Source of the DNA: the human T2T-CHM13v2.0 reference genome, Homo sapiens
Length of the DNA stretch: 64,000 bases
Strand: one strand, 5' to 3'
Assembly: GCF_009914755.1 (NCBI RefSeq)
Contig: NC_060928.1
In this document: piece by piece, positions 5,996 to 59,565 of the stretch
How the letters are laid out: each line of letters starts with the position of its first letter
How positions within the stretch are numbered: the stretch's first letter is position 1
The notes under the pieces: generated by a model
Database searches by the model: none
The model's input: the letters and a program-made list of their open reading frames with translations, nothing else
What the model was told of the DNA's origin: nothing
Position numbers and translations under genes: made by a program

Positions 5996-6659
5996 TAATA
6001 TGATTTGCAGATGTTTAGTTTATGTACACCAGAAAGAAATAGTTACGTATATTTACAGTTCATGGTTCTCTGCAGCAGCGCTGAGTGTATGCCAGATATG
6101 CTTTCCGTTAACTAATTGTAGGGATTTTCTGTGGGTTGAGAGTTTTTTTGCTGTTGTGTTGGAATTTTACTGACCTATCTTTCCTCCCTCTCCATGTTCT
6201 TCCCAGTAGTTCAAATAGCATTCATATGTAAAATGACTGGTTAAAATATGGGAGATCATCTCTGGCTGTTGGAGAAGTCACCCATTTAGGGGATCAACCT
6301 GTGACTGAGGAGGCAGGACACTTTCTGTAGTGGGAGGAACATGGGCCACATACAAACAGATTTAGTTCAAATGCCAGTGCTACCTCTCCCTTGCATTAAG
6401 CAAGTTACTGAAACCTTCAGAATCTAGTTTTCATCTGTAATATAGGAATAATGATGATAATGCTTATATCACCAGGGAATTTGTCTTTCTGAAAGGGCTA
6501 GCACACAGTAGGTATTCAATGCAAGTTAGCTTTTGCCCTTGCCTTCAAATCCAGGGAACACATGGCAGCAACAAGACTGTAGCCCTGGGAGTTGCTATGT
6601 CTGCAGCCTCTTTAAGGTGTTAGGCAGACAGGATGTAAGCACTAGAAAGATTCAGTATG

Positions 6660-58701: not shown

Positions 58702-58927
58702 ATCCTGTGAAGCCACCTGGCAGCTCTTTACAAGCACCAGCTGATTTACCTTTAGCTATAAATACAGCACCACCATCCACCCAGGCAGATTCATCCTCTG
58801 CTACTCTACCTCCTCCATATCAGCTAATCAATGTTCCACCACACCTGGAAACTCTTGGCATTCAGGAGGATCCTCAAGACTACCTGTTGCTCATCAACTG
58901 TCAAAGCAAGAAGCCCGAACCCACCAG
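58702..58927 (+). CDS. GAB1: GAB1 coding exon 3
   Basis: Acceptor ggtgttgcag|ATCCT, donor ACCAG|gtaaat; 226 nt. The phase-1 start matches the exon 2 end (G+AT=Asp). Translates [13 protein letters not shown]...PPPYQLINV...[20 protein letters not shown]. Confidence 0.97.
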
Positions 58928-59298
58928 GTAAATTATATATGCCCATGTGAGAGAGAGACAGAGGCGTGTGTATGTGTGTACACACTGAGATTCTTACCTT
59001 TAAACTTTTTAAATTTCGATTTGCAGGCTTGAAAGAGACCATCTGTATAGGCATATGTTTCAGGCTTTATATTTCAGGTTTACATTCCCCTATTGATTTC
59101 CGATATTCAGGAGATTGTATCGAAGAGACACAATCTCTGCCATCTTTGGCAAAGAGCAGTTTTCCCTACAAGGCTCTTTTGGAAATCTGTCTCCTATTTT
59201 GTAGTCTTTGTTACAGACTCACAGTATTACTTGCTTAACAGATTTCACTGATTTATAAATGGTGATCTTGCTCCATTTCTTATGTGATTGTAAACCAG

Positions 59299-59379
59299 CC
59301 AAGGGTCATCTTTTGTTTCTGAAGAAGGAGAGGAATACCTTCTACTAGAAGATTTTGAAAGCAAAACGATTCCATTGCA
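59299..59379 (+). CDS. GAB1: GAB1 alternative 81-nt cassette exon (adds 27 aa) between exons 3 and 4
   Basis: aaaccag|CCAAGGG...CCATTGCA|gtgagt; 81 nt, phase 2 at both ends, no stop. Reads (S)QGSSFVSEEGEEYLLLEDFESKTIPL(Q). Strong donor, weak pyrimidine tract. Confidence 0.85.
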
Positions 59380-59565
59380 GTGAGTGTGTTGTGGTGGTTT
59401 TGGATCTGTGTGAGAAATTAATCATAAGGTAAAATCCCAATATAGCAAATTCCATGGAATATACAAATTGGATGTTAGTGAAATTTGATCAAATAAATAT
59501 ATTCCTAAAAATTACGAAACTTTTAGTCTTCATATCTAGCAATGAAGCAGAGCTTACCCTAAGCC

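What the first reader, a model, noticed from the sequence alone, without database searches (positions are those of the whole stretch)
58862..59379. Cassette exon looks like a diverged tandem duplicate of the exon-3 Tyr183 motif
Seen: exon 3 ends [20 protein letters not shown](R) and the cassette reads EEGEEYLLLEDFESKTIPL(Q). Both have an acidic run, then YLLL, then SK at identical spacing, with a phase-2 donor 14-15 codons after the Tyr. The codons differ synonymously (tac ctg ttg ctc vs tac ctt cta cta), suggesting protein-level constraint. Inference: an ancient partial exon duplication gives a second, more acidic kinase-substrate/SH2-docking tyrosine that splicing can switch on.
Basis: partly seen in the sequence, partly recalled or inferred. 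Interest (0 to 1): 0.72.

Follow-up and report, generated by a model that had tools for sequence, protein, structure and literature searches.

The report
GAB1 muscle exon duplicates ancient motif
The already known heart- and muscle-specific extra exon of the signalling scaffold GAB1 carries a second copy of a short tyrosine motif shared across the Gab protein family; the copy is also present in fish, sharks, lampreys and hagfish, so it likely arose by a very old partial exon duplication and would give muscle cells a second docking site for a still unknown partner.

Summary
The 81-nt exon (59299-59379) is the published striated-muscle 'high-MW Gab1' exon (PMC5115770), which that paper says has no homology to known domains. 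It resembles the Tyr183 motif ending exon 3 beyond shuffles (6 of 20,000). Relatives make the case stronger than the human pair does. Tyr183 sits in a family-wide motif, Y-hydrophobic-x-[LI]-x-[EDNQH]-[CF]-x-[ST], with Tyr in 41 of 41 aligned Gab proteins, and the same phase-2 intron follows it in human GAB1, GAB2 and GAB3. A second copy, found in forms with and without it, occurs in mammals, frogs, bony fish, sharks and two lamprey/hagfish paralogues; ray-finned fish have the family Cys. A profile trained without GAB1 ranks the cassette Tyr first or second in 14 of 15 proteins. No DNA-level signal remains, and part of the human YLLL match is not ancestral. Origin by partial exon duplication before the jawless/jawed split is likely (about 0.87). 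Function is inferred only: no evidence was found that Tyr211 is phosphorylated or binds an SH2 domain. Known exon and known mechanism, but an unreported link between two open questions about GAB1.

The parts
58702..58927 (+). GAB1 constitutive exon 3 (226 nt, phase 1 to phase 2); its 3' end is the inferred source of the duplication
   Evidence: RefSeq annotation given with the finding; translation and phases
58878..58913 (+). Copy 1 of the motif: D-Y183[10 protein letters not shown]; Tyr codon 58881-58883
   Evidence: Tyr in 41 of 41 rows of alignment A2; partial helix P180-I187 by NMR in PMC13435814
58928..58933 (+). Phase-2 donor of exon 3, 47 nt after the start of the Tyr codon; same offset and phase in human GAB2 and GAB3
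59274..59298 (+). Cassette acceptor region with a short, purine-interrupted pyrimidine tract (weak-looking 3' splice site, judged by eye)
   Evidence: sequence
59299..59379 (+). 81-nt cassette exon (phase 2 to phase 2): the striated-muscle 'exon 3-4' of high-MW Gab1
   Evidence: translation matches the immunogen peptide printed in PMC5115770; RefSeq exon of other transcripts
59333..59365 (+). Copy 2 of the motif: E-Y211-L-L-L-E-D-F-E-S-K; Tyr codon 59336-59338 (Tyr211 of the 721-aa isoform P0013), 28 residues after Tyr183
59380..59419 (+). Cassette donor (44 nt after the start of the Tyr codon) followed by a GU-rich tract; candidate muscle splicing enhancer (inferred)
   Evidence: 9 overlapping GU-type words; 0 of 438 40-nt windows of intron 2 reach that count; words chosen after seeing the sequence

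Best explanation
The cassette is the known striated-muscle exon of GAB1 and encodes a second copy of the Gab-family Tyr183 motif; it likely arose by tandem duplication of the 3' end of exon 3 with its donor site before jawless and jawed vertebrates split, and its inclusion would add a second, more acidic site for the same unknown partner 28 residues after the first. Shown: identity with the published exon; the family motif and its shared intron position; the second copy and its optional inclusion across vertebrates; invariance of the Tyr. Inferred: duplication rather than convergence (about 0.87); a new phase-2 acceptor was needed because a whole copy of exon 3 (phase 1 to 2) would shift the frame; both copies bind the same class of partner because they keep the same constrained positions (about 0.6); the site most likely works as a phosphotyrosine docking site written by a receptor or Src-type kinase, downstream of NRG-1/ErbB4 in heart, raising avidity for that partner (about 0.4).
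For: (1) Family motif: in alignment A2, Y0 is Tyr in 41 of 41 rows, +3 L/I in 41, +6 C in 38 and F in 3, +8 S/T in 41. (2) Human GAB2 and GAB3 have the motif at the end of exon 3 with a phase-2 donor at the same 47-nt offset; the cassette donor is at 44 nt, same phase. (3) Second copy in 70 of 120 mammalian hits, 87 of 120 fish and shark hits, frogs and platypus; 179 of the 328 held proteins that match the first-motif pattern, spacing 24-40 residues, 28 or 29 in 159 of 179. (4) Ray-finned fish copies have the family Cys (79 of 87; the other 8, all sharks, have Phe); bowfin copies read YLWLSNCESKK and YLLLEECESKK. (5) Two lamprey/hagfish paralogues each carry two copies, with one-copy forms of both lamprey genes also listed; a Lethenteron second copy reads YLLLEDF as in human and scores 47-56 against human and frog second copies versus at most 34 against any first copy. 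Position +6 switches between C and F in first copies and C, F and W in second copies. (6) Profile from 41 windows of Gab proteins other than GAB1 and the two-copy cyclostome genes: cassette Tyr ranks 1st or 2nd among all Tyr in 14 of 15 proteins; human 11.8 bits versus 4.0 for the best other Tyr; 171 of 200,000 Tyr-fixed shuffles; 6th of 186,315 six-frame windows. (7) Tyr in 175 of 175 matches to a cassette-type pattern with that position left free. (8) Tyr183 is reported phosphorylated in PhosphoSitePlus according to PMC13435814; high-MW Gab1 is tyrosine-phosphorylated after NRG-1, site unmapped.
Against: No DNA signal beyond the protein match and none in introns. The motif is short; two chance windows outscore the human cassette in the six-frame scan, and the hagfish A second copy ranks only 4th of 22. 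Genome-wide single-sequence searches do not link the two copies (they also miss GAB2/GAB3 exon 3, so sensitivity is low). Sharks, tetrapods, one lamprey gene and the unnamed P0125 have Phe at +6, so the Cys of ray-finned fish may be a reversion and not an ancestral state. Copy-to-copy identity is lower, not higher, in cyclostomes. Function: low-MW Gab1 boosted AKT about as well as high-MW Gab1, so no isoform-specific output is shown; the Tyr183 region is partly helical whereas SH2 ligands are usually extended; the AlphaFold model gives the cassette pLDDT under 50 and no helix; neither copy has YxxM, YxxP, YxN or YxxQ (sequence; consensus motifs and recall).
Confidence: 0.6

Rival explanations
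1. Same duplication origin, but the motif is a phosphorylation-independent (or phosphorylation-inhibited) helical binding element, and the cassette doubles that element for a non-SH2 partner such as PAR1b or PAK4, whose mapped binding regions span it.
For: Constraint reaches to +6 and +8, longer than most SH2 ligands (SH2 footprint recalled). The Tyr183 helix is preformed and unchanged by phosphorylation. PAR1b binds residues 152-250 (PMC6341703) and PAK4 residues 116-234 (PMC2747914); both intervals contain Tyr183 and the insertion point.
Against: No Tyr-to-Phe exchange in 41 of 41 first copies or 175 of 175 cassette-type matches, which fits a need for the hydroxyl or phosphate. PAK4 binding is described as phosphorylation-dependent and specific to Gab1, whereas the motif is family-wide. 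Neither partner is mapped to this motif.
Confidence: 0.25
2. The cassette arose independently from intron sequence and converged on an acidic Tyr-hydrophobic kinase-substrate motif; the likeness to exon 3 reflects shared selection, not descent.
For: No DNA similarity beyond the protein match. Acidic-Tyr-hydrophobic strings are a generic tyrosine-kinase preference (recalled). The +2 Leu match in tetrapods and possibly the +6 Cys in ray-finned fish arose late.
Against: None of the other Tyr windows in the same 15 proteins scores above 4.0 bits on the family profile, against 5.8-19.7 for 14 of 15 second copies. The copy is the very next exon, with a donor of the same phase at nearly the same offset. 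The ESKK tail is shared by both copies in shark and bowfin GAB1 but not by the GAB2-like or GAB3-like first copies compared.
Confidence: 0.1
3. The second copy has diverged to a different job (for example an acidic spacer, a sorting or LC3-interaction-type motif) and no longer shares a partner with Tyr183.
For: +4 is E in nearly all second copies but never E in the 41 first copies; +6 is F in sharks and tetrapods. Acidic-YxxL strings fit several generic trafficking motifs (recalled, not tested).
Against: Every constrained family position is still met in the second copy, and F also occurs at +6 in 3 of 41 first copies.
Confidence: 0.15

Closest known systems
High-MW (striated-muscle) Gab1 isoform, exon 3-4 (PMC5115770; parts 1-4 of 5 read, figures not visible)
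   Same: Same 81-nt exon, same 27 residues, between exons 3 and 4.
   Different: The paper reports conservation in mammals and no homology to known domains; it does not mention the likeness to Tyr183, presence in fish or cyclostomes, or a test of the exon's Tyr.
Gab1 Tyr183 helix epitope (PMC13435814; parts 1-4 of 5 read, supplement not read)
   Same: Same first motif; conserved, partly helical (P180-I187), reported phosphorylated, partner unknown.
   Different: That paper aligns human to Callorhinchus only, pairs Tyr183 with Tyr162, and has no occurrence of isoform, splic-, exon, Gab2, Gab3 or invertebrate in its main text. Here the motif is family-wide and its homologous twin is Tyr211.
Tandem exon duplications giving alternatively spliced homologous exons (PMC8373072, supplement search only; PMC9013439, passages)
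   Same: Adjacent homologous coding segments, one of them alternatively spliced, of ancient origin.
   Different: Only the 3' end of the exon is copied, the acceptor phase differs, and the copy is added to the original rather than swapped for it; GAB1 was not found in the one held supplement or in the second paper's main text.
Gab2 Y194 STAT3 site (review PMC2747914, passages)
   Same: Lies in the same exon-3 segment of GAB2 (human ...EYLYLHQC...).
   Different: The YxxQ tyrosine is the one at +2 of the family motif, where GAB1 has L or W; it is not the counterpart of Tyr183 or Tyr211 (inferred from the sequence), and the review says Gab1 lacks that motif.
Paired phosphotyrosines of Gab1 (Y447/Y472 for p85, Y627/Y659 for SHP2; PMC13435814 introduction and recall)
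   Same: Similar spacing: 25 and 32 residues in P0013 versus 28 for Y183/Y211.
   Different: Different sequence class, and the pair exists only when the cassette is included; no binder is known.

Membership tests
High-MW Gab1 exon 3-4 | 81-nt in-frame exon between exons 3 and 4 encoding the published peptide | tested here: met
High-MW Gab1 exon 3-4 | Inclusion restricted to striated muscle | not testable with these tools
   reported for mouse in PMC5115770; no expression data here
Gab post-PH Tyr183-type motif | Y0, hydrophobic +1, L/I +3, E/D/N/Q/H +5, C/F +6, S/T +8 | tested here: met
   human cassette Y-L-L-L-E-D-F-E-S meets all six; family columns; profile score
Gab post-PH Tyr183-type motif | Phase-2 intron shortly after the motif | tested here: met
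   47 nt in human GAB1, GAB2, GAB3; 44 nt in the cassette. Not checked at DNA level in other species
Gab post-PH Tyr183-type motif | Preformed helix around the Tyr | tested here: inconclusive
   AlphaFold model: residues 183-188 at pLDDT 50 or more with a three-residue helix, cassette under 50 with none; low confidence
Mutually exclusive tandem-duplicated exons | Homology between neighbouring exons | tested here: met
   protein level only; no DNA excess
Mutually exclusive tandem-duplicated exons | Same length class and same flanking phases | tested here: not met
   exon 3 is 226 nt, phase 1 to 2; cassette 81 nt, phase 2 to 2
Mutually exclusive tandem-duplicated exons | One-or-the-other inclusion | tested here: not met
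   proteins hold both copies or only the first; a search for forms with only the second was not made
SH2-docking phosphotyrosine | The Tyr is phosphorylated in cells | not testable with these tools
   only one paper holds the cassette peptide string, as an immunogen; phosphoproteome tables were not searchable
SH2-docking phosphotyrosine | Matches a known Gab effector consensus (YxxM, YxxP, YxN, YxxQ) | tested here: not met
   both copies are Y-L-L-L; a generic pY-hydrophobic-x-hydrophobic class remains possible (recalled)
SH2-docking phosphotyrosine | Phosphorylation-dependent binding to an SH2 domain | not testable with these tools
   no candidate partner sequence was folded or assayed

The most novel reading that the evidence does not exclude
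The Tyr183 motif is an ancient, still orphan effector site of the whole Gab family, and for over 500 million years (date recalled) vertebrate muscle has used one splice switch to turn it into a bivalent pY183-pY211 ligand, spaced like Gab1's p85 and SHP2 pairs, that recruits a tandem-SH2 or dimeric effector only in striated muscle downstream of NRG-1/ErbB4.
Probability: 0.2. Interest if true: 0.75.

Novelty: new member of a known kind. Interest (0 to 1): 0.5.

Why it matters
Two GAB1 papers leave open questions that this link joins: what the 27 muscle-specific residues do (PMC5115770 could not separate the isoforms' outputs) and what binds Tyr183 (PMC13435814). If the cassette is a second Tyr183 motif, one partner screen answers both, and the constrained positions (0, +1, +3, +5, +6, +8) say which residues to mutate. 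It also dates the exon to before the jawless/jawed split and shows the motif is family-wide. Gab proteins carry NRG-1/ErbB signals that protect the heart, so a muscle-only docking site would be of interest in cardiac signalling. The exon and the general mechanism are not new.

Tried and rejected
DNA-level test of duplication: no excess identity and no intron similarity. Pfam, PDB sequence and ESM Atlas searches gave nothing for the two segments. Genome-wide single-sequence searches found only self for the cassette and no relevant match for exon 3. AlphaFold with a 41-row alignment folded only the PH domain and a C-terminal helix with confidence. Complex prediction of the PH domain (1-122) with residues 170-228 returned no verdict (score 0.00, controls not folded); it says nothing either way. 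A cassette-like second copy was looked for in human GAB2 and GAB3 intron 3, both fully covered, and in 30 kb of GAB4: none stood out. STAT3 docking by analogy to Gab2 Y194 was rejected because that Tyr is at +2 of the motif. Whole-exon duplication was rejected on phase. No RBFOX or QKI word lies within the upstream intron or 300 nt downstream, and a search for Gab1 with RBM24 listed one general review only. The tree is a quick tree (careful search unfinished) and leaves the placement of the two cyclostome paralogues open. The PAK4 primary paper was not held.

Full report
Observation. With exon 1 giving 24 residues, the two tyrosines are Tyr183 and, in the 721-aa isoform P0013, Tyr211. The local score of 38 is reached by 6 of 20,000 and 2 of 20,000 shuffles of either segment, 10 of 10,000 shuffles of the 374-aa exon 2-4 product, and 31 of 100,000 shuffles with the Tyr fixed; the identity count alone is reached by 1,712 of 100,000. 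These are post hoc tests. At DNA level there is nothing beyond what the protein match implies (34 of 78 versus 33.2 expected) and the introns do not align. From the human pair alone the case would be only suggestive.

What the exon is. It is the published striated-muscle exon of high-MW Gab1: 81 bp, 27 residues, between exons 3 and 4, with the same peptide used as immunogen (PMC5115770, parts 1-4 of 5 read, figures not visible). That paper found the isoform in mouse heart and embryonic skeletal muscle, tyrosine-phosphorylated after NRG-1 (site not mapped), needed for sustained AKT activation on knockdown, but no better than the short isoform on overexpression, and stated that the insert has no homology to known domains.

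What the first copy is. PMC13435814 (parts 1-4 of 5 read, supplement not read) describes Tyr183 as conserved to Callorhinchus, reported phosphorylated in PhosphoSitePlus, centred in a roughly 40%-populated helix (P180-I187) that does not change on phosphorylation, with no known partner. Here the motif proves family-wide. In a 41-row alignment that I chose to span GAB1, GAB2-like, GAB3-like, cyclostome and unnamed invertebrate-like proteins (41 of the 450 held), Tyr183 is one of ten invariant columns; +1 is always L/I/F/V, +3 L/I, +5 N/E/D/Q/H, +6 C (38) or F (3), +8 S/T. The invertebrate label rests on a quick tree in which these unnamed records branch outside the vertebrate groups. Human GAB2 and GAB3 carry the motif at the end of exon 3 with a phase-2 donor 47 nt after the start of the Tyr codon, as GAB1 does; GAB4 has lost it.

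The second copy across vertebrates. Each homologue search listed only its best 120 hits, so counts describe those lists and not whole clades. A second copy is in 70 of 120 mammal-dominated hits, nearly invariant; in 87 of 120 fish and shark hits, the other 33 being forms without it; and in platypus and two frogs. In the 87, +6 is C in 79 (ray-finned fish) and F in 8 (sharks). Bowfin has YLWLSNCESKK and YLLLEECESKK; sharks YLWLANCESKK and YLLLEDFESKK. Two lamprey/hagfish paralogues each have two copies: Petromyzon YFLLAEC/YFLLGDC and Myxine YLLLSEC/YYMLEDW; Lethenteron YLCLTEF/YLLLEDF and Myxine and Eptatretus YLWLTEF/YELLELC. One-copy forms of both lamprey genes are listed from other lamprey species (P0394; P0131, P0395), which fits optional inclusion but rests on gene models; a third hagfish paralogue shows one copy. 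The Lethenteron second copy scores 47 and 56 against the human and frog second copies and at most 34 against any first copy, pointing to one origin before the jawless/jawed split (a date above 500 million years is recalled). The Petromyzon second copy is closer to its own first copy (31) than to jawed-vertebrate second copies (at most 23), which I cannot explain beyond drift or co-evolution. Over all 450 proteins held, 328 match the first-motif pattern used and 179 of these have a second copy, 28 or 29 residues on in 159. Birds were not seen, the only reptile hit is one alligator form without the cassette, and 0 of 11 marsupial proteins show it; this is no evidence of loss.

Independent test of homology. 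A position-specific profile was built from 41 windows that I picked from the motif list, leaving out GAB1 and the two-copy cyclostome genes. It ranks the cassette Tyr first or second among 9-28 Tyr windows in 14 of 15 two-copy proteins (hagfish A: 4th of 22); human 11.8 bits against 4.0 for the best other Tyr; 171 of 200,000 Tyr-fixed shuffles reach it; in six frames of the window plus 130 kb of paralogue DNA it is 6th of 186,315 windows, behind the three true exon-3 motifs and two chance windows. Copy-to-copy identity over Y0..+10 is 6 of 11 in human, 7 in platypus, frogs and shark, 8 in bowfin, 6-7 in teleosts and 2-5 in cyclostomes. The Cys of ray-finned fish may be a reversion, since sharks, tetrapods and one lamprey gene have Phe.

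How it likely arose and works. Exon 3 runs phase 1 to 2, so a whole copy would shift the frame; the cassette runs phase 2 to 2 and keeps the donor in near register (44 versus 47 nt). The simplest route (inferred) is tandem duplication of the exon's 3' end with its donor and recruitment of a new, weak acceptor, which also makes it skippable. A GU-rich tract just downstream (9 words; 0 of 438 control windows) is a candidate muscle enhancer; the link to RBM24- or CELF-type proteins is recalled and untested. Human GAB2 and GAB3 introns 3 show no such copy, so they lost it or never had it. Because both copies keep the same constrained positions and the Tyr is never replaced (41 of 41; 175 of 175), I infer that the cassette adds a second, more acidic site (net -6 versus -1) for the same partner, most likely as a phosphotyrosine. 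The 28-residue spacing lies between those of Gab1's p85 pair (25) and SHP2 pair (32), which allows a bivalent ligand. Against: no canonical Gab effector consensus, a helical tendency, and no isoform-specific output in the one functional paper. A phospho-independent site for PAR1b (residues 152-250, PMC6341703 passages) or PAK4 (116-234, review PMC2747914 passages) is the main rival. The Gab2 STAT3 tyrosine is at +2 of the motif and is not the counterpart.

Is it in print? Searches: GAB1 + alternative splicing, striated muscle/high-MW, Y183, cassette exon/heart, the cassette peptide string (only PMC5115770), the invertebrate-type motif string (none), GAB1 + exon duplication (none), one supplement of PMC8373072 (no GAB1), main text of PMC9013439 (no GAB1; its online tables not seen), and term search in PMC13435814. 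A 2023 review says the role of the isoforms is unknown (PMC10453317 passages). PMC3039663 (passages) motivated the PH-docking job. Subscription journals, figure alignments and unseen supplements could hold the observation.

Verdict. Known exon, known kind of mechanism, real and apparently unreported homology that joins two open questions about GAB1 and gives direct experiments. Origin about 0.87, shared-partner function about 0.6, phosphotyrosine/SH2 mode about 0.4. Interest 0.5.

Noticed in passing
window 59380-59419: GU-rich tract directly after the cassette donor; 0 of 438 40-nt windows of intron 2 are as rich in the chosen words. Candidate muscle splicing enhancer.
   Followed up: partly
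L020 about 6079-6291 (human GAB4 exon 3) and protein P0152: GAB4 has lost the Tyr motif altogether and the GAB4-like P0152 has a degenerate form, while GAB2 and GAB3 keep it.
   Followed up: partly
proteins P0407, P0411, P0412, P0421, P0422, P0424, P0425, P0434, P0439, P0445, P0448: 0 of 11 marsupial GAB1 proteins listed have the cassette, although platypus and placentals do. May be a listing effect or a real loss.
   Followed up: no
proteins P0131, P0132, P0392, P0393, P0395: One cyclostome paralogue has Phe instead of the family Cys in the first copy; in hagfish the second copy of that gene has Cys, the reverse of human GAB1.
   Followed up: partly
window 58818-58820 (Tyr162, PPPY): The PPPY element upstream of Tyr183 is kept in fish GAB1 and in the lamprey/hagfish paralogue A but is not part of the duplicated segment.
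   Followed up: no
window 59297-59304: A second AG lies 6 nt downstream of the cassette acceptor, in frame; use as an alternative acceptor was not checked.
   Followed up: no
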